A stretch of 64,000 nt of DNA from contig OZ242281.1 of NCBI GenBank assembly GCA_965207365.1, positions 500,362 through 564,361 of the forward strand, given 5' to 3'. The stretch comes from Dehalococcoidia bacterium (lineage in GTDB: Bacteria > Chloroflexota > Dehalococcoidia > Bin125). The notes under the pieces were generated by a model. It was given only the letters and a program-made list of their open reading frames with translations, ran no database searches and was not told the origin of the DNA. This document shows, piece after piece, positions 8,575-64,000 of this stretch. Made by a program: the position numbers and the translations under genes. Every line of letters starts with the position of its first letter. Position 1 is the stretch's first letter.

Positions 8575-8583
8575 GGTAACTCA

Positions 8584-9498: not shown

Positions 9499-9636
9499 TC
9501 CGGCCAGCAGTTTGACAGCCATTGCCAAACTGGGCACAATGGACGGGACGGGAGGCGAGCGCCGCTGACTTCTATCATTGCGGCGGCCCGGCCGAAAGGC
9601 CCGCCTCCTGTCCTTCCGTCTTTCTGGTAGGTCCCG

Positions 9637-10374
9637 ATGCATCTCCTGTATCTCGATGAATCAGGGTCTACTGACGCAAGTCACTTTGTTGTAGCTGGAT
9701 TCATCGTCAACTGGCGGGGCGTCGTGCCTCTCAAGCTGTCGGTGGAGAACATTGTCTCAAATCGGCTCCCCAATGCTGCGGCTATGGAGCTTCATGCCGG
9801 TCACATGCGTGTGGGAAGACGAAGCTGGTCTCGGATTCCACGAGATATCCGACATCAAATCACCGAGGACATAGTGAGACTGATTGTGGGGCAGTCCGGT
9901 GCTGACGAAAATCCCGTGACGTTGGTCGTCGTCGTCGCAGATCAATCCTCCGATTCCTCCTCAGGGCTATACGATCGTTCTTACAGGGCACTGTTTGGAA
10001 TCTGCGAATCCCTCATCCAGGCAGGCCGGAGTGAATCGCCAATCTTGGCCATTGCCGACAAGACGCGCCAAGAACCACTGATTCAAGCGCTGGTGAATCC
10101 AGCCCTCAGCGACCTGACGGTCGACAGTTCGTCGCGAGCGCCGTATTCCTCCTTACTGGAACCGCCACTATTCATCGACAGCCGCATGACCCGCCTTGTG
10201 CAACTCGCCGATTTTGCAGCTCACTGGCTTTACCGAGCTTACGAACACCACGACAACTCAATACTCGACCAGATTCTTCCCGCCTTTGATCGCAGCGGAG
10301 GCAACATGGTTAGTTTGGTTCACCTCACAGACCGAAGTGATTGCTCCTGCCCCGCCTGCGTCTCCCGACGCTGA
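9637..10374 (+). CDS. DUF3800 domain protein
   Basis: Starts MHLLYLDESGS..., the characteristic DUF3800 opening. Local GC is visibly lower than the flanks (9500-10400). Confidence 0.55.
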   Translation: MHLLYLDESGSTDASHFVVAGFIVNWRGVVPLKLSVENIVSNRLPNAAAMELHAGHMRVGRRSWSRIPRDIRHQITEDIVRLIVGQSGADENPVTLVVVVADQSSDSSSGLYDRSYRALFGICESLIQAGRSESPILAIADKTRQEPLIQALVNPALSDLTVDSSSRAPYSSLLEPPLFIDSRMTRLVQLADFAAHWLYRAYEHHDNSILDQILPAFDRSGGNMVSLVHLTDRSDCSCPACVSRR

Positions 10375-21097: not shown

Positions 21098-21600
21098 TGA
21101 GTGCCGTCCGCCGCCGACCGGAGCTGCAGAATCGCCTCATTCGACGAATCGAGGATTAAGAGATTCCAGCCCTGTCGATAACCTGCTTGATAGCCTGATC
21201 GCTCGCTTCGGCCAGCGAGCAACTCTTCCAACGCCTGTTCAGCTTGCATCCGTCCCAGCAATCTCCCCTGTCTAGTCCCCCACGTGAACGCTGCGCTTCG
21301 ATTGCCAGCATCGTTTTCGGACGGCGACTCGCTCAGGCCGTGATACGCCAGATCACCTCCCGAGCCCTGGTCCAGCGCGAATGCACTGACCGCTACCGCC
21401 GTCGAAAGCATCGCGCCGACGAGGAACGCAATCGCCGAGTGTCGTACCAGATCGATCCGCCAGAGCCTTCTGAAGCGCTCCACCTGATCCAACGCGAACG
21501 CACTGACCACTACCACCGTCGAACGCACCGCGCTGACGAGGAACGCAACCGCTGAGTGTCGTATCAGTTCGATCCGCCAGAGCCTTCTGAAGCGCTCCAT
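21076..21600 (-). CDS. paralog array member 2, carrying an in-frame tandem duplication of its N-tail+TM module
   Basis: MERFRRLWRIELIRHSAVAFLVSAV...ALDQV is followed directly by ERFRRLWRIDLVRHSAIAFLVGAM...ALDQG. The C-domain has YQAGYRQGWNLL. It ends TQWIELLK, like member 6. Confidence 0.55.
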   Translation of the reverse strand: MERFRRLWRIELIRHSAVAFLVSAVRSTVVVVSAFALDQVERFRRLWRIDLVRHSAIAFLVGAMLSTAVAVSAFALDQGSGGDLAYHGLSESPSENDAGNRSAAFTWGTRQGRLLGRMQAEQALEELLAGRSERSGYQAGYRQGWNLLILDSSNEAILQLRSAADGTQWIELLK

Positions 21601-45581: not shown

Positions 45582-46676
45582 ATGGACTCAGAGCGATCTG
45601 ACATCGCCTCCGGCACATCAGCGCCGCCCTTGTTCCTGACGGGGGCGGCTGGCCATGTCGGGGCCAATCTGGTGCGCCGCTTGCTCGATGACGGCGCTCG
45701 GGTCCGGGTGCTGCTGAGACACGAGGACAACAACGAAGCCATAGATGGGCTCGACGTCGAGCGCGTCTATGGCGACATCCGCGATCTAGAAGCGACGCGG
45801 CAAGCGCTCGCCGGATGTCATGGCGTCTTCCACACGGCCGCGCTCGTATCCACAATCGACGGCGACGATACGCATCGGCGCGATGTCTTCGAGAGCAACG
45901 TGATCGGCACTCGTAACGTGCTCCAGGCAGCGCAAGAGTTCGACGCTGGACGAGTAGTAGTCACCGGCTCGTTTAGCGCAGTTGGCTACGACCTCGACGA
46001 TCCGTCAGCTCCGTCCAAGGAGTCGATGCCGTTCTTTCCCATGGAACGCACGATGCCATACGAGCGCAGCAAGGCGATGGTCGAAACCGAGTGCTGGCAT
46101 GCGGCGGCAAACGGTCAAGATGTTGTGATTGCCACGTCCTGTGCGGTCGTCGGCGGCAACGACTTCATGCCCTCGCGCATGGGTCGGACGCTGGTCGACT
46201 TCGCCAACGGCAAGCTGCACGCCTATGTCGATGGTGGGTTCGAGTTCGTCGCGGCGGAAGACATCGTGCAGGGACATATGCTCAGCATGGAGCGCGGGCG
46301 AACAGGGCAGAAGTACATCTTCAGCTCCGAGTACCAGACGATCTCCAACATGTTGGATCTGTTTCAGGAGGTTTCGGGCATACGGCGACCGCGGCGGCAG
46401 ATACCCGTCAGCCTGATGTTGCCGATGTCAGTCGTGGTGAGCAACGTCCTCAGCCGGCTGCGCCCAAACGACCCACAGCGATTCACCCCTGGCGCGATCC
46501 GACTCCTGCAGAAGTGCCGTCACGCCGACACCAGCAAGGCGAAAGAGGAATTGGGCTTTCAGCCGACAACGATGCGCGCCGCGGTTCGCGACGCGTACGC
46601 GTTCCACTATCAGCGCAAGGCCATCACCAATTCACGGGCGAAGCGCCCCGAATCGATCGTCCCGGAGGATGAGTAG
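45582..46676 (+). CDS. NAD(P)-dependent 3beta-hydroxysteroid dehydrogenase / epimerase-dehydratase family (SdmB/ERG26-like C-4 demethylation component)
   Basis: Extended-SDR GAAGHVG Rossmann motif and YERSK catalytic motif. Adjacent to a Rieske oxygenase, as in the described bacterial SdmA/SdmB pair. Confidence 0.75.
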   Translation: MDSERSDIASGTSAPPLFLTGAAGHVGANLVRRLLDDGARVRVLLRHEDNNEAIDGLDVERVYGDIRDLEATRQALAGCHGVFHTAALVSTIDGDDTHRRDVFESNVIGTRNVLQAAQEFDAGRVVVTGSFSAVGYDLDDPSAPSKESMPFFPMERTMPYERSKAMVETECWHAAANGQDVVIATSCAVVGGNDFMPSRMGRTLVDFANGKLHAYVDGGFEFVAAEDIVQGHMLSMERGRTGQKYIFSSEYQTISNMLDLFQEVSGIRRPRRQIPVSLMLPMSVVVSNVLSRLRPNDPQRFTPGAIRLLQKCRHADTSKAKEELGFQPTTMRAAVRDAYAFHYQRKAITNSRAKRPESIVPEDE

Positions 46677-46710
46677 TCATGACCAGTCCAGTGACCGCCG
46701 CAACTTCTGA

Positions 46711-47832
46711 ATGGCTCGCGACATGAGTGTCGATACAGATGCAACAACGGTCCGGCCGCCGGCCTTTGGCAGTGAGGGCAACCTGCGCCAACAGGCGCGC
46801 GCGGCGGGCATGAACCCGGACTACTGGTACGCCGTCGAGGAAGTGCGGAACGTCAAGCCGGGCGCGGTGACCGAAGTAGTGTTCTGGAAGCAATCAATCG
46901 CGCTCTACCGGTCGGAGGACGGCTCATTTCACGCGATTGAGAATCGTTGCCTGCACCGCCAGGTCAAACTCTCGCTAGGCGAGGTCGAAGGTTGCCAACT
47001 CGTCTGTGGCTACCACGGCTGGCAGTACGACGAAGACGGCAAGGTCGCTGACATTCCCGACCTGTTCGGTCGCAACCAGGTACCGAAGCTCTCTGTGCGG
47101 TCCTATCCGGTGCAAGTCCGCTACGGACTGGTCTGGATCTTCCCAGGAGATCCAGCACTATCGGAGGAGCGCCAGATCCCGGAAATCCCCGAGCTCGAAG
47201 GGTCCGGGCGATGGGCCTGTGTACCCCTGACGTTCGACCTTGCGGCACACCACTCGATCATCATCGACAACGTGAGCGATTTCTCTCACGCCTACCTGCA
47301 TCGTCAATATCGACCGTTCGACGGCGCCACGCTAACGCGGCATGAGACGATCGGCGACGACGTGCACTTGGCCTACGAGACCCGTGTCGGGCGCGGACGC
47401 ATCTCTGGATTGTTCGTCGATCACGATCGCCTCAACACGAATCACATGGAGCTCTGCTTCGAGTATCCCTACCAGCGATCAAACACAGATGACGAAATCA
47501 AACACTGGCTCTTCGTCCTACCCATCGATGAGCGGAGGACGCGAACGTTCTTCCTCTTCTACTTCAGGTCGCTCAAAATCCCCATGCTTCCGGTTCGCAT
47601 TCCTCGTTGGGCCATGACCACCGTCCTGCGCCTGGCCAATCGCATGTTGATCGGCCCACTGCTCTCACAGGACCGCTGGGCGGTGGAGGCTGAGCAAACG
47701 GGTTACGAGACGAACTGGGATGCCGCTCCCATCGAGGTCAATCCGGTCGTTCGCTCGTTCCAGCAGGTGACAGTCCGCAAGTGGCAGGAGCACCTGGACC
47801 GCGAAACCGCCACAAGCGCGAACGATGCCTGA
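46711..47832 (+). CDS. Rieske [2Fe-2S] non-heme iron oxygenase (SdmA-like sterol C-4 methyl oxidase candidate)
   Basis: CLHR...CGYHGW Rieske motif and a DNVSDFSHAYLH mononuclear-iron motif. 373 aa. Confidence 0.75.
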   Translation: MARDMSVDTDATTVRPPAFGSEGNLRQQARAAGMNPDYWYAVEEVRNVKPGAVTEVVFWKQSIALYRSEDGSFHAIENRCLHRQVKLSLGEVEGCQLVCGYHGWQYDEDGKVADIPDLFGRNQVPKLSVRSYPVQVRYGLVWIFPGDPALSEERQIPEIPELEGSGRWACVPLTFDLAAHHSIIIDNVSDFSHAYLHRQYRPFDGATLTRHETIGDDVHLAYETRVGRGRISGLFVDHDRLNTNHMELCFEYPYQRSNTDDEIKHWLFVLPIDERRTRTFFLFYFRSLKIPMLPVRIPRWAMTTVLRLANRMLIGPLLSQDRWAVEAEQTGYETNWDAAPIEVNPVVRSFQQVTVRKWQEHLDRETATSANDA

Positions 47833-48922
47833 TATCCCCTCGGAGTGGACGGCCGTATCAGGCCAGCGCCTGCTCGAGGCAGCGGGGATATTCCTGCTGT
47901 TCGTCGGAGTTCTGCTGCTCGGTTCAAAATATGTACCGGGCCGCAAGGCGGTAGGCAGGCCTGATCCTGACGGCGTGACGCGCACTTACAACCTCAACGG
48001 GCTGGCGCTGTTCTTGTTCGTCATGCTGCTGGCCGTGCTCGGCGATGTCTTCGACGTCATCTCACTCTCGGTGCTGCACACACACTTTGCCGAGCTGTTC
48101 ATCGTGGCCAACGTCTTCGCCTGTCTACTCTCAGCCGGGTTGTATTGGCAAGGGTCGCGTCTCCGAAGCGAATCGCCCGGTCTGCTGCGCGGGTTCTTTT
48201 TCGGCCGCCAGCTCAATCCATCCTGGCTTGGGGTCGACCTGAAGCTGTTTAGCTACCGACCATCCCTCATTTCGCTGGCATTGTTCAATGTGTCGTTTGC
48301 CGCAGTCCAGTACGACACGCACGGTGAGTTCACGCTACAGATGCTCTTGTACCAGGCGTTCACGTTCATATACGTCCTGAACTACTTTCAGTTTGAGCAT
48401 GGCATGATCTTCACCTGGGACATCGTCGCTGAGCGCTTTGGCTGGATGTTGATCTGGGGAGACTATGTCCTGGTGCCGTTCTTCTATTGCCTGGCAGGAT
48501 GGTGGTTGTTGGATACCACGGACTCGATACCGATCTGGGCGGCGCTATTGATCTGCTTGCTGTTTGTCGTGGGATTCTGCATGTTCCGCGGCGCCAACGA
48601 ACAGAAGCACCGGTTCAAGCAGAATGCGGAGAGTTCTATCTGGGGACGGCCGGCCGAGACACTTGACGGGCGACTGCTGGTGTCCGGCTTCTGGGGTGTA
48701 GGCCGACATCTGAATTACTCCGGCGAGATTTGCGTGTACGTTGCATTTGCGCTGACGACCGCGTTCGCGTCCTGGATCCCGTTTGCATTGCCGGTCTGGC
48801 TGACGGCGCTGTTGTGGCATCGTGCGTGGCGCGACGACCGTCGCTGCCGAACCAAGTACGGCGAACTCTGGGAGCGCTACACGCAGCGGGTACCATACGC
48901 ATTGATCCCGCGCGTCTACTAG
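47825..48922 (+). CDS. sterol reductase, ERG4/ERG24 family (C-14 reductase candidate)
   Basis: C-terminal LLVSGFWGVGRHLNYSGEI...RAWRDDRRCRTKYGELWERYTQRVPYALIPRVY is the family hallmark. It overlaps the upstream gene by 8 bp. Confidence 0.8.
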   Translation: MPDIPSEWTAVSGQRLLEAAGIFLLFVGVLLLGSKYVPGRKAVGRPDPDGVTRTYNLNGLALFLFVMLLAVLGDVFDVISLSVLHTHFAELFIVANVFACLLSAGLYWQGSRLRSESPGLLRGFFFGRQLNPSWLGVDLKLFSYRPSLISLALFNVSFAAVQYDTHGEFTLQMLLYQAFTFIYVLNYFQFEHGMIFTWDIVAERFGWMLIWGDYVLVPFFYCLAGWWLLDTTDSIPIWAALLICLLFVVGFCMFRGANEQKHRFKQNAESSIWGRPAETLDGRLLVSGFWGVGRHLNYSGEICVYVAFALTTAFASWIPFALPVWLTALLWHRAWRDDRRCRTKYGELWERYTQRVPYALIPRVY

Positions 48923-48954
48923 AGTCGGCGCTTCAGGGTCTGTTGAGGTCAGAG

Positions 48955-50343
48955 ATGGTTCAACTGCGCAGCGCTCCGACGGCTCCACAAGATGAACGGG
49001 CACTTCCGGAGCTGAGTGGCGGGGCGCCGCTGATTGGTCACCTGCGGGACTTTCAACGCGACCCGGTGGCCATGATCAGCCGCGGTTGGGATCAGTTGGG
49101 CGAACTGTTCCGATTCCGACTTGGTCCCCGCCAGTTTGTGCTCTTCTGCGGACCCGAGGCGCATGACGCCTTCTTCAGCGCACCCGAGGACCAACTGAAC
49201 GCCAAGGAGGTCTATCAGTTCACCGTTCCAATCTTCGGTCGTGGCGTGGCCTACGATGTCGCGCCCTCGATCATGGACGAGCAGCTCGGCTTTCTCTATC
49301 CAGCACTCCGGGAATCCGCGATGCAAGAGTTCGCCCGGATCATGTACGAGGAAACGGCGCTCCTCGCCGATTCCCTCGGCGAGGAAGGCGTGCTCGATCT
49401 GCCGGAAGCGATGAACGAACTGACCGTGAATATCGCCAGTCGCAGTCTGATCGGACAGGAAGTCCGCGATCAGGTGGACGCGGGCTTCGCCGATGCCTAT
49501 CACGACCTGCAGAAAGGCATCAACACCCTGGGTTTCTTTCTGCCCCGGCTTCCCACTCCCGCGCATCGCAGCCGCGACCGGGCACGTAAACAGGTAGCCG
49601 AAATCTTTGGCCGGATTATGTCGGCCCGTCGTCGTGCCGATGCACGCCCTGACGACTTCATGCAAACGCTCATGGACGCGACCTACAGCGATGGCCGCTC
49701 GTTGAGTGATGACGAGATCACGGGAATCCTCTTGACCGTGTTGTTCGCCGGTCAGCACACCAGCGCAGTGCTCGCCACCTGGACCGGCCTGGAACTCGTC
49801 AAAGCTTCCTCGTACGCGGAACGTGTCAGAGATGAAACGGCCGCCGTGTACGGCGATACCGGGAACATGAGCCTTGAGGGCCTGAGACAACAGGTGACCA
49901 TGGAGCATGCCGTACGCGAGGGGGAACGTCTCCACCCGCCGCTGATCATCCTGATCCGCAAGGTGCTCAAGCCGATGCGCTACGGAGACTACGTGGTGCC
50001 TGAAGGTGCGCTAGCGATGGTCTCGCCGGCGGTTTCTCACCGGTTGCCGCATCTGTTCGCCAACCCGGACCAATTCGACCCGGACCGCTACGCTGAACCC
50101 GCTCGCGAGGACAAACAGCATCCCTACGCCTTGATCGGCTTCGGCGGAGGCAAGCATCGCTGTATGGGCAAGCACTTTGCCGAGATGCAGGTCAAAGCCA
50201 TCTGGACCGTGCTGCTCGATCGCTTCGACTTCAGTCCCGACACTGAGTTTCCGACCCCCAACTACGGCAGTTGGGTCACTGGTCCCGTGACACCCTGCCG
50301 CATCCGATACCGGCGCCGCTCGTCAGGCAGAGTCTTCCGGTGA
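48955..50343 (+). CDS. cyp51: cytochrome P450 CYP51 (sterol 14-alpha-demethylase)
   Basis: FGGGKHRCMG heme-binding loop and the AGQHTS helix-I signature typical of CYP51. The start was chosen at ATG 48955. Confidence 0.8.
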   Translation: MVQLRSAPTAPQDERALPELSGGAPLIGHLRDFQRDPVAMISRGWDQLGELFRFRLGPRQFVLFCGPEAHDAFFSAPEDQLNAKEVYQFTVPIFGRGVAYDVAPSIMDEQLGFLYPALRESAMQEFARIMYEETALLADSLGEEGVLDLPEAMNELTVNIASRSLIGQEVRDQVDAGFADAYHDLQKGINTLGFFLPRLPTPAHRSRDRARKQVAEIFGRIMSARRRADARPDDFMQTLMDATYSDGRSLSDDEITGILLTVLFAGQHTSAVLATWTGLELVKASSYAERVRDETAAVYGDTGNMSLEGLRQQVTMEHAVREGERLHPPLIILIRKVLKPMRYGDYVVPEGALAMVSPAVSHRLPHLFANPDQFDPDRYAEPAREDKQHPYALIGFGGGKHRCMGKHFAEMQVKAIWTVLLDRFDFSPDTEFPTPNYGSWVTGPVTPCRIRYRRRSSGRVFR

Positions 50344-53300
50344 CTGAGACCGGCTTGAGCCGATACGACGTGGCGATCGTCGGCGCCGGACCTGTCGGCA
50401 GCCTGTGCGCGATTGCTCACGCACGCAAGGGTTATCGAGTCGCGCTCTTTGAGGCGAATCCGTCCGCGTCTGAACGACTGGCCGGTGAGTGGCTGCATCC
50501 TCCAGCCGCACGAATCCTGCGTGATTTCGGGATATCGGTTCATGCCGAAGCTCGGGACGGCTCGGGCAAAGGCTTCGCGGTGTTCCCGGATGACGGCCAC
50601 GAGCCAATCGTGCTTCCCTACTCGGACGGATCGCGCGGGTTGGTGTGTGAACACGCGACGCTGGTCACACGCCTACGCGAGACGGCGGACGCGGAGCACG
50701 GTGTCGACCTCAGACTTCACGCCCGCGTACACACCGTCGAAGACGAGCGGATGACGTACTCGCAGGACGGCGCAAGCCACACCGTTGTCGCAGAGCGGAT
50801 CGTCGGCGCCGACGGCCGATCGTCTGTGGTCCGTCGTTCCTTGGGCCTGGCAACAAGATCGAAAACTGCTTCGCGCATGATTGCGCTCACGTTGGAGGGC
50901 GCCCGGCTGCCGCTGGAGGGCTACGGGCACGTCGTGTGTGGCGCTCCGGGCCCGATGCTGATCTATCGCCTGAGCGACGATCTCGTCCGGGCCGTCATTG
51001 ACATCCCACTGGACCATGCGCCTCAAGACTGGAAGGGCCTCCTGTCGGACTCGTATGCCCGCTGGTTGCCGGAACCGCTCCGGGCGCCGTTCGTCGAGGC
51101 GTGGTCGGAAGACCGTGTACACGCCGCCGCCAATGCCGTCAGCCCACGGGTCACCTACGGCACCTCTCGTCGAGTGCTGATTGGCGATGCGGCGGGACAC
51201 TACCACCCCTTGACCGCCACGGGACTCACGCTGGGCTTTGGCGACGCCATCGCACTGGCGGAGAGCGAACAGTTCGAAGACTTTCGGAACGAGCGATTCG
51301 AGGCGACGAGAGTTCCGGAACTGCTGGCGATGGGACTCTACGAGGCGTTTGCCGATCAGCGGGCCGAAGCGGCCGTGCTGCGGCAGGCGATGTTTGGTCG
51401 CTGGAGGACCAGTGCAGCGGTACGTAACCACACCGTGCGGCTGCTTGCCTGTGAAGATACCTCGGTGGCCAGGCTGAGTCGGGAGTTCTCGATGACGGTG
51501 GCCTGGGCGCTAAAGGCCGCTGTCCCGAGATCGCTCGACCCTCTAGCCTGGAGCCGCTTCGGCGAGGTCGCTCGCGGACTGAGCAACCGGATGGGCTGGC
51601 TCCTGCGAGGCGCCTGGAATCTGCACAGCGTCAGACGATCCGGCAAAGCCGGACCCGAACGGCCCACCGAGACGCTGTCCCGCGCATTTCTGACCTCCAT
51701 GCCATCGGCGCCGTCCATGCCATCGGCGCCAACAGGGCGGCCACGAGACGGCGACCTGCGTCAGGCCGATGCCCTGTCGCCCGATGCCGTGCCACCTGAT
51801 GCTGGTCCGGCGATCCAGGACGCCGCCGCGCGTCTGTTGGACCTCCAGGCCGAGGATGGCAGTTGGGAAGGCGAGATGGTCTGGTGCCCAATGATCACGG
51901 CGCAGTGGGTACTGCTGCAACACATCATTGGACGGCCCATCGATCCCAAGCGACGCGAGCAGATCCTGCGTTACTTCGAGCAGTCCCGGTTGCCGGAGGG
52001 ATCGTGGGGCTTGCACGACCACTCACATCCCTATGTGTTTGTCACCGCCCTGGTCTACGTGGCGTCACGACTGCTCAGCGTTGAGCGGGACGATCCGCTG
52101 GTCGAGCCGGCGCGACGATTCCTCCAGCAGGAAGGCACTCTGAGCATCCCAAGCTGGGGCAAGTTCTGGCTGGCGCTGCTCAATCTCTACGAGTGGAGTG
52201 GAATCCATCCCGTGCTCCCCGAGCTCTGGAGCCTACCCCGCCAACTGCCATTGCATCCCTCGAACTGGTATTGCCACACTCGGCTGATCTACATGGCCAT
52301 GGCCGCGATCTACCCGCGTCGGTTCCAGACGCCTGTCACACCACTGATCGAGTCTTTGCGGGAAGAATTGTTCCCCCAGGGGTTTGAAACCATCGACTTT
52401 CCAGCGCAACGCAACCACCTGCGCCAGGCCGACCTCTTCGCCAAGCCGACAGCATTGCTGAGAGCGGGGTACCGGGGCGCGGAGCTGCTGGAGCGATTCC
52501 ATAGCAAAGGCCTACGCGCCAGGTCGATGGATGAGCTGATCGGTCAGATCAAGTGGGAACTGAACACGACTGATCACACGAGCATCTCTCCGGTCAGCGG
52601 CCTGCTCAACATCCTCGCCTTGTGGCTGCACGATCCCGACGACGGCGACTGCAACCGAGCGCTGGAGCAGGTCAACCAATGGTTCTGGGAAGACGAGGAG
52701 CATGGCGCCCGCATGACCGGCGCCAGAAGCGCCTCGTGGGACACCGGTTTCGCGCTGCAGGCGCTGTCGACGGCGCCTCAGATTGGCGACTTGCCCGACG
52801 CGTTACAGCGCGGGACTACTTACCTGCGCCAGCAGCAGGTCGGTACCAGCGTTCCGGGCTATCGCGAGGCGTATCGGAACGACCCGAAGGGCGGTTGGTG
52901 TTTCGCGGCGCAATGGCACGGTTGGCCGGTGACGGACTGCACGGCGGAAGCCGTGCTGGGGATTCTGGCAGCCGATCCCACATCGATCAGCGCGACGGCA
53001 CTCCGCGATGCGATTGGCTTCATGCTGCGTGGCCAGAATCGCGATGGCGGATTCGGCAGCTACGAGGCGCAGCGCTCCAGGATCGAACTCGAGCGAGTCA
53101 ATCCCGCCGAGATGTTCGGCGAATCAATGACCGAGCACTCATTTGTCGAATGCACGGCATCCTGCCTGGCCGCACTCGTCGCTTGCCGGACGCACTTCCC
53201 GGAGATCATCGATCGGGACACGGAACGCGCCATCTTGCAAGCGGACGCCTGCCTCCGCCGGACTCAGCACAGCGACGGCTCCTGGCGCGGAGTGTGGGGT

Positions 53301-53729
53301 GTGCAGTTCATCTACGGCACGTTCTTCGGGATCAAAGGCCTGGTCGCCAATGGAGCGCAGCCGAATGATCCGGCGCTCAACGCGGCATGCAGATGGCTAT
53401 TGGATCGCCAAAAGGACGACGGAGGATGGGGCGAGCATCACAGCGGTTGCATGACCGGCCAGTACGTCCAACACGAGGAGAGTCAGGTGATCCAGACCGC
53501 CTGGGCGTTAATCGCCTTGCTGGAGGCAGGCGCGTCGGACTGGCAGGCCATTGCGCGTGGCGCTCAGTTCCTGATCGACCGGCAGTGCCCGGATGGGACC
53601 TGGCCCAAACAAGACATGGCCGGGGTCTTTTTCCGCACCGCACTGCTGGATTACGTCCTCTACCGCCAGTACTTCCCGTTGCACGCCCTCGGCTTGTACG
53701 AAGAGCGGCGCAAGACCCGCAGCGTCTGA
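50340..53729 (+). CDS. fused squalene monooxygenase (epoxidase) - oxidosqualene cyclase
   Basis: The N-half has a DVAIVGAGPVGS FAD fold and GDAAGHYHPLTATGLTLG (SQMO motif). A linker carries a tandem MPSAPS repeat. The C-half has the VTDCTAEAV (DCTAE) catalytic motif and QW repeats (GGWGEH, DGSWRGVWG). GTG start at 50340 overlaps the CYP51 stop. Confidence 0.85.
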   Translation: MTETGLSRYDVAIVGAGPVGSLCAIAHARKGYRVALFEANPSASERLAGEWLHPPAARILRDFGISVHAEARDGSGKGFAVFPDDGHEPIVLPYSDGSRGLVCEHATLVTRLRETADAEHGVDLRLHARVHTVEDERMTYSQDGASHTVVAERIVGADGRSSVVRRSLGLATRSKTASRMIALTLEGARLPLEGYGHVVCGAPGPMLIYRLSDDLVRAVIDIPLDHAPQDWKGLLSDSYARWLPEPLRAPFVEAWSEDRVHAAANAVSPRVTYGTSRRVLIGDAAGHYHPLTATGLTLGFGDAIALAESEQFEDFRNERFEATRVPELLAMGLYEAFADQRAEAAVLRQAMFGRWRTSAAVRNHTVRLLACEDTSVARLSREFSMTVAWALKAAVPRSLDPLAWSRFGEVARGLSNRMGWLLRGAWNLHSVRRSGKAGPERPTETLSRAFLTSMPSAPSMPSAPTGRPRDGDLRQADALSPDAVPPDAGPAIQDAAARLLDLQAEDGSWEGEMVWCPMITAQWVLLQHIIGRPIDPKRREQILRYFEQSRLPEGSWGLHDHSHPYVFVTALVYVASRLLSVERDDPLVEPARRFLQQEGTLSIPSWGKFWLALLNLYEWSGIHPVLPELWSLPRQLPLHPSNWYCHTRLIYMAMAAIYPRRFQTPVTPLIESLREELFPQGFETIDFPAQRNHLRQADLFAKPTALLRAGYRGAELLERFHSKGLRARSMDELIGQIKWELNTTDHTSISPVSGLLNILALWLHDPDDGDCNRALEQVNQWFWEDEEHGARMTGARSASWDTGFALQALSTAPQIGDLPDALQRGTTYLRQQQVGTSVPGYREAYRNDPKGGWCFAAQWHGWPVTDCTAEAVLGILAADPTSISATALRDAIGFMLRGQNRDGGFGSYEAQRSRIELERVNPAEMFGESMTEHSFVECTASCLAALVACRTHFPEIIDRDTERAILQADACLRRTQHSDGSWRGVWGVQFIYGTFFGIKGLVANGAQPNDPALNAACRWLLDRQKDDGGWGEHHSGCMTGQYVQHEESQVIQTAWALIALLEAGASDWQAIARGAQFLIDRQCPDGTWPKQDMAGVFFRTALLDYVLYRQYFPLHALGLYEERRKTRSV

Positions 53730-53759
53730 CCCTGTCCGCAATGTTCCTCGCCGCGTGGC

Positions 53760-54791
53760 TCAGTTCTCGGTCTGTTCGGGCTTTCGGGCCAGGTAGTAGA
53801 ACATCGGCGTAAACACGCCGGCCTCCCCGCCCTCGACCAGCGCATCCGCGCCCGCATTCAACACGCTGCTGATCTCCCGAGCGCCCTCAGGAACGATCCG
53901 CAGCTTCTCTCCGACTCGCAACGTCAGATTGGTCAAGGCTCGGCCAATCGGCGTTCGTGGCAAACTCGCCAAGCTCAGATCACGGCCCTGCAAGGGGCGA
54001 TACCAGGGGGTCTCCGAATCCGATTCGGGGGCGAGGTCGCGAGCTTCCACGACCTCGAACCCTGCTGCAACCAGCGCCGAACTGATCTCCGATGTGTGCG
54101 CAATATCCGGAAGTCCGTTGCCCTTCATGACGTCCTGCTTGATGCGCACGTGTTCGGCGTTCTCGGGATCGTAAGAATCCGTGAGACACCATTCGAAGCC
54201 GGCAAACTCGCCGCCCGGACGCAGCACGCGGAAGATCTCCCGGAACACTGCGGTCTTGTCGGGCGCGTGCGGTGTGGCTTCGATGTTGATCGCAGCGTCA
54301 AACTGGTCGTCAGCTTCAGGAATGTCCATGTAGTCGCCGTGAATGAATCGGCACTGCGACTGCAAATCCCTCGTGTGGTGTTTGGCGCGATCGATCTGGT
54401 ACGCGTTCAGATTGATTCCAACAAAGTTCGCTCCAGTGCGGCGGGCCAAATTGGCCATCGGTCCGCCGACCCCACAGCCAACATCCAGCACCTGCATGCC
54501 CGAGTTCATGGCTAACTGTTGGGCGAGAAAGTGCTCGTGCCGCAGCATCGATTCGTTGAAACTCTCGCCGCGGCGTCGGGGCGCAAAGTGAAATGACCGA
54601 CCCCAACCGAACTCGTAGAAATCAGTCGCAAGGTTGTAGTAGTGATTGACGACCGCGTGATAGCGATCTTTGCGTTGTTCGAGGCTCCCATCGAACAGCC
54701 CCGAATAGTCCTCAACCGCAGGCTTGATCTCCTCAGGATCCAGGTCGCCAACAGAGCGACCACTCGACCGCTTGGCAAACAGACGGCTCAT
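53760..54791 (-). CDS. sterol 24-C-methyltransferase (ERG6/SMT family)
   Basis: YEFGWGRSFHFA (SMT region I) and LDVGCGVGGP SAM motif. 343 aa. Confidence 0.8.
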   Translation of the reverse strand: MSRLFAKRSSGRSVGDLDPEEIKPAVEDYSGLFDGSLEQRKDRYHAVVNHYYNLATDFYEFGWGRSFHFAPRRRGESFNESMLRHEHFLAQQLAMNSGMQVLDVGCGVGGPMANLARRTGANFVGINLNAYQIDRAKHHTRDLQSQCRFIHGDYMDIPEADDQFDAAINIEATPHAPDKTAVFREIFRVLRPGGEFAGFEWCLTDSYDPENAEHVRIKQDVMKGNGLPDIAHTSEISSALVAAGFEVVEARDLAPESDSETPWYRPLQGRDLSLASLPRTPIGRALTNLTLRVGEKLRIVPEGAREISSVLNAGADALVEGGEAGVFTPMFYYLARKPEQTEN

Positions 54792-60645: not shown

Positions 60646-60951
60646 ATGAAGACGTTAGTCATGGAGATCATCACACTGGTCGTCTTCTGGCCGCTGCGAA
60701 TCGTCTCTCGACTGTTCGGTCGTCGGGCCAACGCCAAGGTACGCCAGTGGCAGGACAACACCTGGACCTGGTGGTTGGGAGCGGCCGCCGTGGGCTACAT
60801 GGTCGGCGACCATCACCTGGGAAGCGACCAGGGACAAGGCGTCGGCGGTTACGAAGGCGGACACTACGACGGCGGACACTCCGGCGGTGGTCACGACGTC
60901 GGCGGCGGCTTCGACGGCGGCGGATTCGGCGGCGACATCGGCAGCTTCTAA
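60646..60951 (+). CDS. small membrane protein with Gly/His-rich low-complexity C-terminal tail
   Basis: N-terminal hydrophobic helix, then GGYEGGHYDGGHSGGGHDVGGGFDGGGFGGDIGSF. Confidence 0.35.
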   Translation: MKTLVMEIITLVVFWPLRIVSRLFGRRANAKVRQWQDNTWTWWLGAAAVGYMVGDHHLGSDQGQGVGGYEGGHYDGGHSGGGHDVGGGFDGGGFGGDIGSF

Positions 60952-61006
60952 GCAACCGCCCGACTCGAGCAGCGGCCATATGACCAGGCGCACCTGGATT
61001 CCCCGC

Positions 61007-61215
61007 TCCCCCTTGCAGAGACTGATGCACAACTCCCCTTCTCCCCCCTTGCGGGGGAGATGCCGAAGGCAGAGGGGGGTCCCTGCCTGTTGGCCCTATC
61101 TGGTCGTCGCCAGCCGACCCCCCCTCTGTCACTCCGTGACATCTCCCCCCGCAAGGGGGGGAGAGGGGAATCGGAGGTTATGCATCAGTCCCTGCAAGGG
61201 GGAGCGGGGAATCCA
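61007..61215. repeat. MITE-like palindromic repeat (family A, full copy with agactgatgcacaactcc / ggaggttatgcatcagtcc termini) plus short sub-unit
   Basis: Reference copy. It is internally self-complementary along its whole length (ctcccccttgcgggggagatg pairs with catctccccccgcaagggggggagagg, and cagaggggggtc pairs with gaccccccctctg). Confidence 0.8.
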
Positions 61216-61522
61216 GGTGCGCTTTGCATAGGCTCTTAGCATCCATGTGAACTGACCCTAGCTACGTGCACTGGAATTCTGATTGCCTGCCTCGTCAGTT
61301 CGGGGCTGGTCACGGCGCCGGCTCGTCGGCCAGGAACTCGGTACACGAGCACAGGTCTTGCTGCTCCGCCGCGACTCCTGGGTGAGGACGTCTCGACCGC
61401 GTATGGATGCAAACGGCCGATGTGCATAGGCTACGGATTCGGACAGATCGAAGAGAGCATGGAGGGGGAGTGGAATGATGACTGATCGACCCAGACCACA
61501 CAGCGCTAACTCGCGCGGACGT

Positions 61523-61537
61523 GGGGGGGGGGGGGGG
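61523..61537 (+). repeat. 15-nt poly-G homopolymer inside the 5' end of a secreted-protein gene
   Basis: GTG at 61521 is followed by G15. The downstream signal-peptide frame is +1 relative to this GTG. A tract of 14 G would give M-GGGG-VRLPRRHRPWFALAAVAALALLAAVATLNSQPAEA, a complete signal peptide. Confidence 0.6.
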
Positions 61538-61581
61538 TACGCCTGCCACGGCGGCACCGACCCTGGTTCGCCCTGGCCGCA

Positions 61582-63549
61582 GTGGCGGCGCTGGCACTGC
61601 TGGCAGCCGTCGCGACGCTGAATAGCCAACCCGCTGAAGCGCAGTGGCAACCCTGTGTCTTCGTGCATCCCACAAGCGTCACCGTCACGGAAGGCGAAGC
61701 GGCCGAGCTGACGCTGACGACGACCACCGTCCTCAAGAAAGCGGTCGAGGTGACCTTGATAGCAGTAGGCGGAACGGCCACAAGAGGAGACAACGACTTC
61801 CCCAGCGCCCCGCTGACGGCAACGATTCGTGCGAACCAGTTCAGGACCACAGTAAACTTCCCGACAACCTGGAATGCCCCGACTGAACCAGATGAGTCGT
61901 TCGAGGTGGACATCCTCGTAACCGGCCTAAACGCTGACCTGGTGCCGTGTGAGAATCGTAGCCGCGCGACGATTACGATCGAGGATGTCCCACAATCCAC
62001 CGTCCATATCACCGGCCGCACGCCGCTGCAGCCATGGTACGAAGGCAACAGCCTCACCTTCGGCGTCTTCGTCGACGACGCTGTGGTCCAACCGATCGAC
62101 TACACCGTTCGCGTGAACCTCAGTGGCGCGACCAACTTCCTGGCCCCGGGCGAGAGCACCACTCGCAACGTCAGGATCAAAAAAGGCTCCATTGGCACGC
62201 ATTTCAAGGTGCGGACGATAGACGACGGCGTCAGCGAATCCGACGGAGACATCACCGCGACGCTGGCGACGCCAGCGACAAGTGCCCGTTATGTGCTGGA
62301 CAGTGACACGTCGCGGCGCTCCCGTGCGCTACGCGTCTCCGACAACGACGGCTCGTCGGGTTTCTCTTCCACGGTGACGTTGGGCGGCACAACCGCCACG
62401 AGCACGACGATCTCCGAGGGCTTCCTGCCACCACGTGAGCAGACGGGCACTCCTGCCAGTACGTACGGCAACGTGGCGAACCTGGCGCTGGCCACGACCG
62501 GCTCATTCGAGCAGGGTCTGGTGCGACTGTTCCTCGAAGTTGGCGGCACCGCCGAGTACGGGGTCGACTATCTGCTGCAAGTCTGGGACCCGGGCTTTGT
62601 CGGCGGCTGGTACAACCTGTCCCGGTCGTACATTCGCCCGCCCGCGGGCGGCAAACTCGGTCAGGTGGAGTGGGTCCCATTCTCGCGGAACAGCCACCTC
62701 CGAGTGGTCGCCCTGGCTGATCGCGACACCGATACCGGCGAAACCATCACGATCAAGGTGGTCAATTGGAACACCACGAAGCTGTACCATCCCCGTGCGC
62801 ACGTGACTCTGTCGAACAATGTCGCCCACACCATCACCATCGGTACGGACATCGTCGGCACGGTGCGGCTCTCCTCCAGTGAGCCGTCAGGTGAGATTGG
62901 CGAGACCAATGGGCACGGAGAGCCGGCCAAGCAGACCGTCGACCCGACGCCGCAGCCGCCATTGGAGAAGTACGCCGCGCTGGTCAAGTCGTTCTACGAC
63001 CGCATCAGCGCCAAGAACCAGCACGGCGACAGCGCCGGCGGCGGCTGGAACAAGCGCTTCCTCAAGGCGATGGGTCACCCGGAGTACGTCGACTACCCGC
63101 AGCCCGCAGTGACGGTCGCGGATGCGACAAGGCTCTGGAATCACGGCGGACAGGGCGCCAACACAGCCTGGGACGGCACGGTCGAAGCGGTAACCTACGC
63201 CAACCAGTACGTCGCGCCCACGCCGACACCAACGCCGACACCCACTCCGACTCCGACGCCCACTCCGACTCCGACGGTCGAGCCTGAGCCGACGCCGCAG
63301 CCGCCGCTCGAGAAGTACGCGACGCTGATCGCGCGGATCAAGACGGACATGCAGAGTCCGAACTACGGCAACGAGGCACACGACCTGAAGCGGGTGCTGA
63401 AGACGCTCGGCGTGCCCGAGTACGCCAACTACGACGGCAACCCGGTCGGAGTGCAAGAGGCGACCAACCGTCGCACGAAGCCCAACGACAACCCGCACTG
63501 GGCAGGCATCGCCGAGGCGATTCAGTACGCGCAGTCGTACACGCCATAG
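61582..63549 (+). CDS. secreted repeat protein with Calx-beta-like domains, a (PT)n linker and duplicated C-terminal domains; the 5' end is apparently frameshifted or phase-variable at the G-tract
   Basis: TVTEGEAAELTLTTT-type Calx-beta signatures. PTPTPTPTPTPTPTPTPT linker. Two homologous roughly 90-aa C-terminal modules each start TPQPPLEKYA. As written the ORF starts at GTG 61582 with a truncated signal peptide. Confidence 0.55.
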   Translation: MAALALLAAVATLNSQPAEAQWQPCVFVHPTSVTVTEGEAAELTLTTTTVLKKAVEVTLIAVGGTATRGDNDFPSAPLTATIRANQFRTTVNFPTTWNAPTEPDESFEVDILVTGLNADLVPCENRSRATITIEDVPQSTVHITGRTPLQPWYEGNSLTFGVFVDDAVVQPIDYTVRVNLSGATNFLAPGESTTRNVRIKKGSIGTHFKVRTIDDGVSESDGDITATLATPATSARYVLDSDTSRRSRALRVSDNDGSSGFSSTVTLGGTTATSTTISEGFLPPREQTGTPASTYGNVANLALATTGSFEQGLVRLFLEVGGTAEYGVDYLLQVWDPGFVGGWYNLSRSYIRPPAGGKLGQVEWVPFSRNSHLRVVALADRDTDTGETITIKVVNWNTTKLYHPRAHVTLSNNVAHTITIGTDIVGTVRLSSSEPSGEIGETNGHGEPAKQTVDPTPQPPLEKYAALVKSFYDRISAKNQHGDSAGGGWNKRFLKAMGHPEYVDYPQPAVTVADATRLWNHGGQGANTAWDGTVEAVTYANQYVAPTPTPTPTPTPTPTPTPTPTVEPEPTPQPPLEKYATLIARIKTDMQSPNYGNEAHDLKRVLKTLGVPEYANYDGNPVGVQEATNRRTKPNDNPHWAGIAEAIQYAQSYTP

Positions 63550-63577
63550 CCGGTCGGCCGCAACACCGCCCGCGAAT

Positions 63578-63760
63578 CCTCTCTCCCCCCCTCGCGGGGG
63601 GAGATGTCACGACTCCCGAATCCTCTCTCCCCCCCTTGCGGGGGGAGATGCCGAAGGCAGAGGGGGGGTCCGCTGTTCAGCAGCCCTATCTGGTCATCAG
63701 CAGCCGACCCCCCCTCTGTCACTCCGTGACATCTCCCCCCGCAAGAGACTGATGCACAAC
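63578..63760. repeat. MITE-like palindromic repeat (family A)
   Basis: ctctcccccccttgcggggggagatgccgaaggcagagggggggtcc...gaccccccctctgtcactccgtgacatctccccccgcaagagactgatgcacaacc. Confidence 0.7.
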
Positions 63761-63769
63761 CTCTCAACC

Positions 63770-63910
63770 GCCCCCGCCTCCGAGCGGGGCCTGTTCCTTC
63801 CCCGGCTTCTGCTCGGCGGCCATGCTTGTCGCTCGTATCTGCTCAACAGGAACTGATCCGTGCTGCCCAGGCCAGGCCAAAGCGGGTCCCCGCTCGGGGG
63901 CGGGGACGGG
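63770..63910. repeat. 140-bp family-C element, right copy (inverted relative to 57400-57540)
   Basis: Reverse complement of 57400-57540 across its whole length. Confidence 0.7.
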
Positions 63911-64000
63911 AAACTCAGTTATGCATCAGTCTCTTGCGGGGGGAGATGTCACGACTCCCGAATCCCCTCTCCCCCCCTTGCGGAGACTGATGCATAACTC
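63905..64000. repeat. partial family-A MITE copies running off the window end
   Basis: actcagttatgcatcagtctcttgcggggggagatgtcacgactcccgaatcccctctcccccccttgcggagactgatgcataactc. Confidence 0.55.

What the first reader, a model, noticed from the sequence alone, without database searches (positions are those of the whole stretch)
61507..61600. 15-G homopolymer tract separates the start codon from the signal peptide of a secreted Calx-beta protein (phase-variation switch or homopolymer error)
The only in-frame start for the signal-peptide-encoding frame lies beyond an upstream in-frame stop (TAA 61507-61509). GTG 61521, preceded by the ggac of 61517-61520, is followed by G15 (61523-61537) and is out of frame by +1.

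With 14 G the product would begin M-GGGG-VRLPRRHRP-WFALAAVAALALLAAVATL-NSQPAEA. That is a textbook signal peptide with a basic n-region, h-region and AxA cleavage site. With 15 G, translation can start only at GTG 61582, giving a truncated signal peptide without an n-region.

Long poly-G tracts at 5' ends of surface-protein genes are classic slipped-strand phase-variation switches. The alternative is an assembly homopolymer miscount.
Basis: seen in the sequence. Interest (0 to 1): 0.6.

Follow-up and report, generated by a model that had tools for sequence, protein, structure and literature searches.

The report
Hypervariable poly-G switch before secreted-protein gene
The 15-G run is real and belongs to a conserved class of very long, length-variable G or C runs at the front of secreted-protein genes in uncultured, probably sponge-associated, bacteria, and it most likely turns the gene on and off by shifting the reading frame.

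Summary
G15 lies at 61523-61537 and is the only homopolymer longer than 9 nt in the 64 kb window. It separates every start codon that could supply a complete signal peptide from the 655-aa ORF (61582-63549).

The phase-switch idea is supported by comparison. All three full-length homologues carry a long G/C run at the equivalent 5' position. So do nearly all Chloroflexota and Acidimicrobiales genes that share this protein's C-terminal 85-aa domain. Run lengths range from 9 to 23 nt, as poly-C or poly-G. Of 16 G/C runs of 10 nt or more in 386 kb of such loci, 15 sit in these 5' leaders. Near-identical leaders differ mainly or only in run length (C23 vs C10, C21 vs C18, G15 vs G10).

ATG 61475 has a strong Shine-Dalgarno site, and both are conserved in the closest leader (L030). 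It fuses to the full preprotein with G16 or G13. As assembled, G15 is an OFF state or a 1-nt miscount, which cannot be resolved without reads.

This is a new member of a known kind (pilC-type homopolymer phase variation), in a lineage where it has apparently not been described.

The parts
61461..61470 (+). Shine-Dalgarno-like GGAGGGGGAG, ending 4 nt before ATG 61475
   Evidence: Read. It is conserved with L030 (GGAGGAGGAG, alignment A6). An SD core is present at 14 of 15 leader starts against a 9.6% background.
61475..61480 (+). ATG-ATG, the probable true start codon of the preprotein and of the leader ORF
   Evidence: It is conserved as ATGATGA in L030.
61475..61621 (+). 48-aa dead-end ORF produced with G15 (MMTDRPRPHSANSRGRGGGGGYACHGG...*). 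It overruns GTG 61582 in another frame.
61507..61509 (+). TAA in the main-ORF frame, closing that frame upstream
61521..61523 (+). It is in frame only with G14, has no SD, and is out of frame with ATG 61475.
   Evidence: and comparison with L030.
61523..61537 (+). G15 homopolymer, the hypermutable tract
   Evidence: Homologous tracts are documented.
61537..61581 (+). Main-frame codons for VRLPRRHRPWFALAA: the basic n-region and the start of the h-region of the signal peptide. They are reachable only by translation through the tract.
   Evidence: L030 reads GGGVRLAPRRLRSLLG at the same place.
61582..63549 (+). Longest canonical ORF (655 aa, GTG start). It begins inside the h-region (MAALALLAAVATLNSQPAEA|Q).
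   Evidence: Homologues are 41-50% identical.
61651..61986 (+). Calx-beta-like domain (aa 24-135), below the Pfam gathering score
   Evidence: E = 3.8e-5, 24.1 bits against a cut-off of 27.
62956..63210 (+). Conserved 85-aa domain (PPLEKYAALVKSFYDRI...GGWNKRFLKAMGHPEYV...) shared across phyla
63301..63540 (+). Second, diverged copy of the same domain (38% identical to copy 1), following a Pro/Thr-rich linker at 63215-63297
60988..61222 (.). Upstream cluster of nested palindromic REP-like repeats that bounds the locus
63573..63999 (.). Downstream cluster of the same REP-like repeats

Best explanation
The G15 run is a hypermutable contingency tract in the N-terminal coding region of a secreted, probably surface-associated, protein. 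I infer that translation starts at ATG 61475, which has the Shine-Dalgarno site GGAGGGGGAG, and then crosses the G run as poly-glycine. If the run length is 1 mod 3 (G13, G16), translation continues into VRLPRRHRPWF-ALAAVAALALLAAVATL-NSQPAEA|Q and the mature protein. With G15 the ribosome ends in a 48-aa dead-end ORF that overruns GTG 61582, so the gene is OFF or makes only a product with a crippled signal peptide. G14 would place the SD-less GTG 61521 in frame. I infer that slipped-strand mispairing at replication changes the run length and so switches expression reversibly within the population.

Shown: the anatomy, the conservation of the design, and the length variability between related sequences. 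Inferred: the start codon, the switching within a population, and the effect on expression. The assembled length of 15 may itself be off by one.
For: (1) The tract is unique in the window.

(2) All three full-length homologues carry a long G/C run (C15, C11, C16) upstream of their signal-peptide coding region. In each case it is the only homopolymer of 9 nt or more in its 12-14 kb locus.

(3) Genes sharing the C-terminal domain in Dehalococcoidia, Tepidiformaceae and Acidimicrobiales MAGs carry G10-G12 or C10-C23 runs at their 5' ends. Of 16 G/C runs of 10 nt or more in 386 kb, 15 are in such leaders. None of that length occurs in 257 kb of proteobacterial, acidobacterial and Thermodesulfobacteriota loci carrying the same domain.

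(4) Near-identical flanks carry different run lengths: L027 C23, L024 C10 and L028 C16 (A4); L025 C21 and L026 C18 (A5); window G15 and L030 G10, which share SD+ATGATG and G(n)TACGC (A6).

(5) Both orientations occur (poly-G and poly-C on the coding strand). The tract therefore encodes Gly or Pro indifferently, which points to a DNA-level property rather than an RNA or peptide motif.

(6) An SD core lies upstream of 14 of 15 leader starts, against 9.6% of all ATG/GTG. The tract is therefore transcribed and translated.

(7) In silico length changes toggle between the full preprotein and short dead-end ORFs in every locus but L006, where no length reaches the main frame.

(8) There is no RNA-structure signal (z-scores -0.4 to +2.0), no Rfam family and no sigma-70 consensus.

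(9) There is precedent. The pilC genes of Neisseria gonorrhoeae carry a poly-G tract within the signal-peptide sequence that gives phase-variable expression (PMC13017665). Homopolymeric tracts at 5' ends of genes act as reversible inactivation switches (PMC2831843).
Against: No read-level data are available, so heterogeneity within a population has not been shown.

All five loci in which fusion is the only route to a full signal peptide (window, L030, L001, L002, L021) are out of frame in their assemblies. The chance of that under random frames is about 0.13. It could instead mean that another decoding mechanism operates, or that consensus lengths are systematically wrong.

The length differences seen are between different MAGs or species, not between cells of one strain.

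The leader peptides are poorly conserved, so use of ATG 61475 rests on the SD site and on conservation of the SD plus ATG-ATG in a single homologous leader.

The sequencing platform of the window is unknown.
Confidence: 0.55

Rival explanations
1. Pure consensus error. The real genome has a fixed in-frame run (most likely G16), the gene is simply ON, and the apparent frameshift is a long-read homopolymer miscount.
For: Several related loci come from chromosome-scale MAGs or hifiasm-style contigs. From general knowledge, long-read consensus is least reliable in homopolymers longer than 10 nt. The window, L030, L001, L003 and L027 would all fuse to the main ORF with exactly one more base.
Against: The error is not systematic. 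Seven loci need -1 or +2 instead, and two are in frame. A 15-nt G run could hardly be stable in vivo. A miscount explains neither why the run exists nor why it is conserved at this position in 11 assemblies. This rival concerns only the exact length and is compatible with the main explanation.
Confidence: 0.15
2. Decoding at the RNA or ribosome level. The DNA is stably out of frame. RNA polymerase slippage on the long G/C run, or ribosomal frameshifting, yields a fraction of in-frame product, so the encoded frame matters little.
For: Runs of 10-23 nt are far longer than slipped-strand switching needs. The frames of leader relative to main ORF are spread over all three states (2 fused, 5 needing +1, 7 needing -1). 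All five fusion-dependent loci are out of frame. From general knowledge, transcriptional slippage rescues frameshifted genes at poly-A tracts in insect endosymbionts, and is used in Thermus dnaX, Shigella mxiE and IS elements.
Against: The required direction of shift is not conserved, whereas programmed cases keep a fixed out-of-frame arrangement. From general knowledge, slippage is documented mainly for A/T runs. The tools here give no transcript data.
Confidence: 0.15
3. The tract is a 5'-UTR or regulatory element and not coding. Translation starts downstream of it, at GTG 61582 or at the non-canonical CTG 61543, with the G run acting as a Shine-Dalgarno mimic 5 nt upstream. Run length would tune expression or be neutral.
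For: In the class A and B loci and in L003, the main ORF has its own ATG or GTG with a complete signal peptide 17-23 nt after the tract. In L153 a G21 run lies 6 nt before the ATG of an MmeI-like gene, at SD distance. In the window, CTG 61543 would give MPRRHRPWF...
Against: The equivalent codon in L030 is TTA, which is not a start. Poly-C runs cannot act as an SD. GTG 61582 gives a signal peptide with no basic n-region even though that n-region is encoded in frame immediately upstream. SD+ATG leader ORFs precede the tract at 14 of 15 leader starts, in 8 of 9 homology groups.
Confidence: 0.1
4. Decaying pseudogene. The frameshift is a fixed inactivating mutation.
For: The gene is out of frame with every good start codon.
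Against: The 655-aa ORF is otherwise intact and aligns over its length with homologues. The tract is conserved among homologues rather than being a lineage-specific lesion.
Confidence: 0.03

Closest known systems
Neisseria gonorrhoeae pilC1/pilC2 poly-G tract in the signal-peptide coding region
   Same: A homopolymeric G run lies between the start codon and the signal-peptide or mature part of a surface protein. Frameshifts in the run give ON/OFF expression (PMC13017665).
   Different: Here the run is as long or longer across the family (9-23 nt, against about 11-13 for pilC by my recollection). It occurs as G or C. It lies before the n-region rather than inside the signal peptide. The organisms are uncultured Chloroflexota and Actinobacteriota symbionts. 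Switching has not been demonstrated.
Bordetella pertussis fim2/fim3 promoter poly-C stretch
   Same: A very long C run, about 13-15 nt by my recollection, lies upstream of a surface-structure gene. Single-C changes alter expression (PMC10172299 and PMC1891110).
   Different: The Bordetella tract is in the promoter and acts on transcription. Here an SD plus start codon precedes the tract, so it appears to be transcribed and translated. No promoter consensus was found.
Poly-G/C contingency genes of Campylobacter jejuni, Helicobacter pylori and Haemophilus, and the 5' homopolymeric tracts surveyed by Orsi et al.
   Same: Intragenic homopolymers near the 5' end act as reversible inactivation switches (PMC2831843).
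   Different: By my recollection those tracts are typically 7-13 nt. Here there is also a second architecture, in which the tract lies in a separate leader ORF whose stop overlaps the main start (TGATG or GTGA) in one of the three frames.
Transcriptional-slippage decoding (Thermus dnaX, Shigella mxiE, endosymbiont poly-A tracts)
   Same: A long homopolymer lies in a gene that is out of frame in the DNA.
   Different: The direction of shift required is not conserved among homologues here. The runs are G/C rather than A/T. There are no RNA data.

Membership tests
Homopolymer (SSR) translational phase-variable gene, pilC type | Homopolymer long enough for slipped-strand mispairing (about 7-9 nt or more) | tested here: met
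   G15 at 61523-61537.
Homopolymer (SSR) translational phase-variable gene, pilC type | The tract lies between the start codon and the functional part of the ORF, so that a 1-nt change toggles the frame | tested here: met
   Simulated G13 and G16 give the full preprotein from ATG 61475. G14, G15 and G17 give 48-50-aa dead ends from that start. G14 puts GTG 61521 in frame.
Homopolymer (SSR) translational phase-variable gene, pilC type | Tract length differs between related sequences while the flanks are conserved | tested here: met
   G15 vs G10 (A6). C23, C10 and C16 (A4). C21 vs C18 (A5). The comparisons are between MAGs, not between cells of one strain.
Homopolymer (SSR) translational phase-variable gene, pilC type | Length heterogeneity within one population, and reversible ON/OFF expression | not testable with these tools
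   No reads, transcripts or cultures are available.
Promoter-spacer homopolymer switch (Bordetella fim, Neisseria porA/opc type) | Tract located between promoter elements or activator sites, upstream of the transcription start | tested here: inconclusive
   No sigma-70-like site was found in 60950-64000. An SD plus ATG precedes the tract in the window and at 14 of 15 leader starts, which argues that the tract is transcribed. No TSS data exist.
Programmed transcriptional slippage or ribosomal frameshift gene | A conserved out-of-frame arrangement that needs the same shift in all homologues | tested here: not met
   Among 14 loci, 5 need +1, 7 need -1 or +2, and 2 are in frame.
Calx-beta domain protein (PF03160) | Pfam match at or above the gathering score | tested here: not met
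   24.1 bits against a cut-off of 27, E = 3.8e-5, aa 24-135. Homologues P0001 and P0002 carry the precomputed PF03160 hit, so the fold assignment is plausible but marginal for this protein.
Secreted protein with a cleavable N-terminal signal peptide | Basic n-region, hydrophobic h-region and AxA cleavage motif | tested here: met
   RLPRRHRPW / FALAAVAALALLAAVATL / NSQPAEA-Q was read from the translation. Homologue P0003 has MIRRGT-LMGLLLMVASALALLTLL-PTNSPDASA-Q. No signal-peptide predictor was available.
Known RNA leader or riboswitch | Match to an Rfam model, or a fold more stable than shuffled sequence | tested here: not met
   Only sub-threshold matches to unrelated families, mostly miRNA-type hits on the REP palindromes. 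Leader folds have z-scores of -0.4 to +2.0.

The most novel reading that the evidence does not exclude
Symbiotic Dehalococcoidia, Tepidiformaceae and Acidimicrobiales, probably from sponges, run a multi-locus contingency system. Very long G/C homopolymers (10-23 nt) are embedded in Shine-Dalgarno-equipped leader ORFs in front of a horizontally shared family of large secreted or adhesin-like proteins. Run length selects among three translational states. In the first, the leader is fused to the preprotein. In the second, the leader stop overlaps the main start (TGATG or GTGA), giving termination-reinitiation coupling. In the third, the leader overruns the start and occludes it. This would be the first SSR phase-variation system described in sponge symbionts or in Chloroflexota, and it would control candidate host-interaction proteins. 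Alternatively, the runs are decoded by polymerase slippage, so that each cell hedges at the RNA level.
Probability: 0.4. Interest if true: 0.75.

Novelty: new member of a known kind. Interest (0 to 1): 0.58.

Why it matters
Phase variation through simple repeats is a hallmark of pathogens and some commensals that face host immunity or phage. My full-text search found nothing on it for sponge symbionts or for Chloroflexota.

Here a single rule holds across the Chloroflexota- and Actinobacteriota-type assemblies examined, with L005 the one intact exception. The one long G/C run in a 12-64 kb locus sits at the 5' end of a gene for a large secreted protein. That protein carries a rare 85-aa domain shared at about 80% DNA identity across phyla.

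If the runs do switch, these uncultured symbionts vary their surface or secreted repertoire stochastically. That bears on host recognition, phagocytosis evasion and phage pressure in the sponge.

There is also a practical point for annotation. Gene callers truncate these genes. For example, P0034 starts inside the h-region, and P0001 and P0002 start after the signal peptide. Frameshifts at these runs should not be called pseudogenes or 'corrected' blindly.

Tried and rejected
- **Scans with the full-length family.** I scanned genome contigs and metagenome contigs with the full-length alignment A1. No relatives were found, so the full-length family is very rare.
- **Exact-protein look-ups.** Look-ups for the window's ORF and for its neighbour found nothing on record, so the source genome could not be identified directly.
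- **Metagenome DNA scan.** None encodes the domain, and similarity to the leader is confined to the G run and a few adjacent bases.
- **RNA-structure ideas.** I tested whether poly-C sequesters the G-rich SD, and whether there is a riboswitch or attenuator. The leaders fold no better than shuffled sequence, and there is no Rfam hit.
- **Poly-proline stalling leader peptide.** Rejected as a general mechanism, because four leader groups (five loci) carry poly-G (Gly) instead.
- **Promoter scan.** No sigma-70 consensus was found. Upstream DNA is not conserved between the window and L030 beyond the SD (A7).
- **Systematic 'one base short' artefact.** Rejected as the sole explanation, because the shift needed to restore frame is not uniform across loci.
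- **Function of the C-terminal domain.** There is no Pfam, NCBIfam or PDB sequence hit. The AlphaFold model (pLDDT 84.5, helical) has no Foldseek match in the PDB.
- **P0005.** The look-up found no record.
- **P0009 locus.** It shows no tract at that gene.
Full report
**1. The observation**

The window contains a run of exactly 15 G at 61523-61537. It is the only homopolymer longer than 9 nt in 64 kb. The other runs, of 7-9 G or C, mostly lie in or next to copies of a REP-like palindromic repeat.

TAA 61507-61509 closes the frame of the long ORF. That frame then reads LARTWGGGGVRLPRRHRPWFALAAV without any ATG, GTG or TTG until GTG 61582. The longest canonical ORF (61582-63549, 655 aa) therefore begins MAALALLAAVATLNSQPAEA|Q. 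That is an h-region and an AxA site with no basic n-region. The n-region (RLPRRHRPW) is encoded in frame immediately upstream.

**2.

An ATG-ATG at 61475-61480 is preceded by GGAGGGGGAG (61461-70). It opens a 48-aa ORF that runs through the tract.

With G16 or G13 this start fuses to the whole preprotein, MMTDRPRPHSANSRGRGGGG(G)VRLPRRHRPWFALAAV... With G14, G15 or G17 it ends after 48-50 codons. GTG 61521 has no comparable ribosome-binding site.

**3. Homologues**

Only three full-length relatives exist among 5.8 billion protein clusters (41-50% identity). I fetched the DNA of all three.
- L001 has C15.
- L002 has C11.
- L003 has C16.

Each run lies just upstream of the signal-peptide coding region. 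Each is the only homopolymer of 9 nt or more in its 12-14 kb locus.

P0001 and P0002 were called without their signal peptides, because the frame is broken at the run. P0003 has a normal signal peptide (MIRRGTLMGLLLMVASALALLTLLPTNSPDASAQ).

**4. A wider family**

A profile search showed that the window protein's C-terminal 85-aa module (PPLEKYAALVKSFYDRI..HGD..GGWNKRFLKAMGHPEYV.YPQ.AVT..HGGPGANTAW.GT.EA..Y; window 62956-63210, with a diverged second copy at 63301-63540) is shared with other large secreted proteins.

A scan of one genome per GTDB species found 26 loci. They lie in MAGs labelled Thermodesulfobacteriota, Alphaproteobacteria, Arenicellales, Vicinamibacteria, Acidimicrobiales, Tepidiformaceae and Dehalococcoidia. 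Amino-acid identity is 67-87% and DNA identity is about 80%.

The module is rare. It matches 53 representatives among 1.84 billion proteins. It has no Pfam, NCBIfam or PDB match.

One locus comes from an 'SB0661' bin. The same SB06xx bin series supplies bins of Poribacteria, a group I know as sponge symbionts. A sponge origin for the whole set is an inference.

**5. The key result**

In the Dehalococcoidia, Tepidiformaceae and Acidimicrobiales loci, most genes that carry the module have one long G/C run at their 5' end. L005 lacks one, and in L032 only a 69-aa fragment remains. The runs are listed below.

| Locus | Run |
|---|---|
| L021 | G12 |
| L004 (= L022) | C17 |
| L023 | C13 |
| L024 | C10 |
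| L025 | C21 |
| L026 | C18 |
| L027 | C23 |
| L028 | C16 |
| L029 (minus strand) | C10 |
| L030 | G10 |
| L031 | C20 |
| L006 | G9 |

Across 386 kb of such loci there are 16 G/C runs of 10 nt or more, and 15 of them are in these leaders. Across 257 kb of the proteobacterial, acidobacterial and Thermodesulfobacteriota loci there are none of that length, and a single C9 (L011). Single MAGs carry two or three such loci: OY763410.1 has C13, C21 and C20, and OY760104.1 has C23 and C16.

**6. Length variability**

Leaders with near-identical flanks differ mainly or only in run length.
- L027 C23, L024 C10 and L028 C16 (A4).
- L025 C21 and L026 C18 (A5).
- The window and L030, a Dehalococcoidia MAG. 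They share the SD, the ATGATG start and the G(n)TACGC junction, but have G15 and G10 (A6).

Upstream of the SD nothing is conserved between the window and L030 (A7).

The REP-like repeat of the window also occurs in L029, which is from the same MAG as L030. The window is therefore probably from a related Dehalococcoidia bacterium.

**7. Architecture**

Fourteen of the 15 leaders have an SD core 5-12 nt before an ATG or GTG that lies upstream of the run. The background rate is 9.6% of all ATG/GTG. The leaders fall into nine homology groups, and I picked the starts by eye, so the nominal p-value overstates the case. The tract therefore appears to be translated.

Two designs exist.

*Type I (window, L030, L001, L002, L021).* No canonical start lies between the run and the n-region, so only the fused frame gives a complete signal peptide.

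*Type II (L003, L004, L023-L028, L031).* The main ORF has its own ATG or GTG, with a full signal peptide, 17-23 nt after the run. The three frames of the leader ORF give three outcomes:
- a fusion with the main ORF;
- a stop that overlaps the main start (TGATG, or GTGA in L003);
- an overrun of 30-40 codons into the main ORF.

The functional meaning of these three states (fused, coupled, occluding) is my inference.

**8. Frame states as assembled**

| State | Loci |
|---|---|
| Fused | L025, L026 |
| One base short of fusion | window, L030, L001, L003, L027 |
| One base too long, or two short | L002, L004, L021, L023, L024, L028, L031 |

This spread is what random or rapidly changing lengths would give. 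It is not what a uniform 'one base under-called' artefact would give. It also does not fit a programmed frameshift with a fixed direction.

All five type I loci are out of frame. With p about 0.13 this is not significant, but it keeps RNA-level decoding and assembly error alive as rivals.

**9. Mechanisms considered**

Poly-C and poly-G both occur on the coding strand, encoding poly-Pro or poly-Gly. This argues against a specific peptide (for example a proline-stalling leader) or a specific RNA motif. It argues for a strand-symmetric DNA property, namely slippage.

The leader RNAs fold no better than shuffled controls. No Rfam family matches. No sigma-70 consensus is present.

The best explanation is therefore a classical slipped-strand contingency tract acting at the level of translation. 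The closest precedent is the poly-G tract in the signal-peptide sequence of gonococcal pilC (PMC13017665). The long poly-C tracts of the Bordetella fim promoters resemble it in length but act on transcription (PMC10172299, PMC1891110). Homopolymers at 5' ends of genes as reversible switches are a known general principle (PMC2831843).

**10. Verdict for the window**

The tract is real, conserved and, across relatives, hypervariable. The gene as assembled is OFF, or the count is off by one.

The ON lengths are most likely G16 or G13 with ATG 61475. G14 with GTG 61521 is a weaker possibility.

Whether the population is heterogeneous cannot be decided without reads. A full-text search found no description of repeat-mediated phase variation in sponge symbionts.

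I class this as a new member of a known kind. The lineage-wide pattern, and the leader-ORF variant with a stop-start overlap, deserve follow-up.

Noticed in passing
window 62956-63210 (and 63301-63540); loci L007-L032: An uncharacterised 85-aa helical module (GGWNKRFLKAMGHPEY core) is shared at 67-87% amino-acid and about 80% DNA identity. The proteins that carry it are large secreted or autotransporter-like proteins in MAGs of at least six phyla. Only 53 of 1.84 billion representative proteins have it. It has no Pfam, NCBIfam or PDB match. It looks like a horizontally exchanged module specific to symbionts, probably of sponges.
   Followed up: partly
window 45582-54791: A bacterial sterol-biosynthesis gene cluster. 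It contains a 3-beta-HSD/epimerase, a Rieske oxygenase, an ERG4/ERG24 reductase, a cytochrome P450, a 1152-aa squalene epoxidase-oxidosqualene cyclase fusion (50271-53729), and a sterol methyltransferase with a Sterol_MT_C domain (53760-54791, minus strand). It is relevant to the debate on bacterial sterol methyltransferases and sponge biomarkers (PMC10070321 appeared).
   Followed up: partly
window 60988-61222, 63573-63999, and near 32.9, 34.8, 37.5, 44.2, 55.2 and 57.6 kb: A family of nested palindromic REP/MITE-like intergenic repeats, with motifs GTTATGCATCAGTCTCTTGC, GACATCTCCCCCCGCAAG and GATGCCGAAGGCAGAGGGGGG. It occurs at eight or more intergenic sites and brackets the gene on both sides. 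A related copy is in L029 (Dehalococcoidia MAG OZ219805.1).
   Followed up: partly
L153 14203-14223: A G21 run lies at the very end of an SNF2-helicase ORF and 6 nt before the ATG of an MmeI/Eco57I-like restriction-modification gene. It is a possible phase-variable defence system, or an SD mimic, in another organism that carries the domain.
   Followed up: partly
L024 15308-15321: A C14 run that is not next to any recognisable gene start on either strand. It is the only long G/C run in the set that the leader pattern does not explain.
   Followed up: partly
L029 5747-5756 (minus strand): A C10 run lies 45 nt upstream of the ATG of a secreted protein. The mature part of that protein begins with a diverged copy of the module (YYDVNKHRSPGYGENWKRVLIA). 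The leader resembles class B (C(n)ACGATTCTCG).
   Followed up: partly
L011 6886-6894: A C9 run lies in the open frame about 180 nt upstream of the first start of an Arenicellales (Gammaproteobacteria) family member. It is the only hint of the same device outside Chloroflexota and Actinobacteriota.
   Followed up: no
window 60646-60951: A small ORF (101 aa) with a hydrophobic N-terminus and a Gly/His/Asp-rich tail built from a degenerate 15-nt repeat (GGxHYDGGHSGGGHDVGGGFDGGGFGG). It has no Pfam match and lies directly upstream of the REP cluster.
   Followed up: no
window 21366-21599: A 117-bp tandem duplication with 2.0 copies at 89% identity.
   Followed up: no
P0009 / L153 6001-8361; L024 about 6440-10000: Family members with internal frameshifts. 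The C-terminus of P0009 is an out-of-frame translation of the usual tail, and the L024 gene breaks after a T7 run. These are either assembly indels or decaying copies.
   Followed up: no
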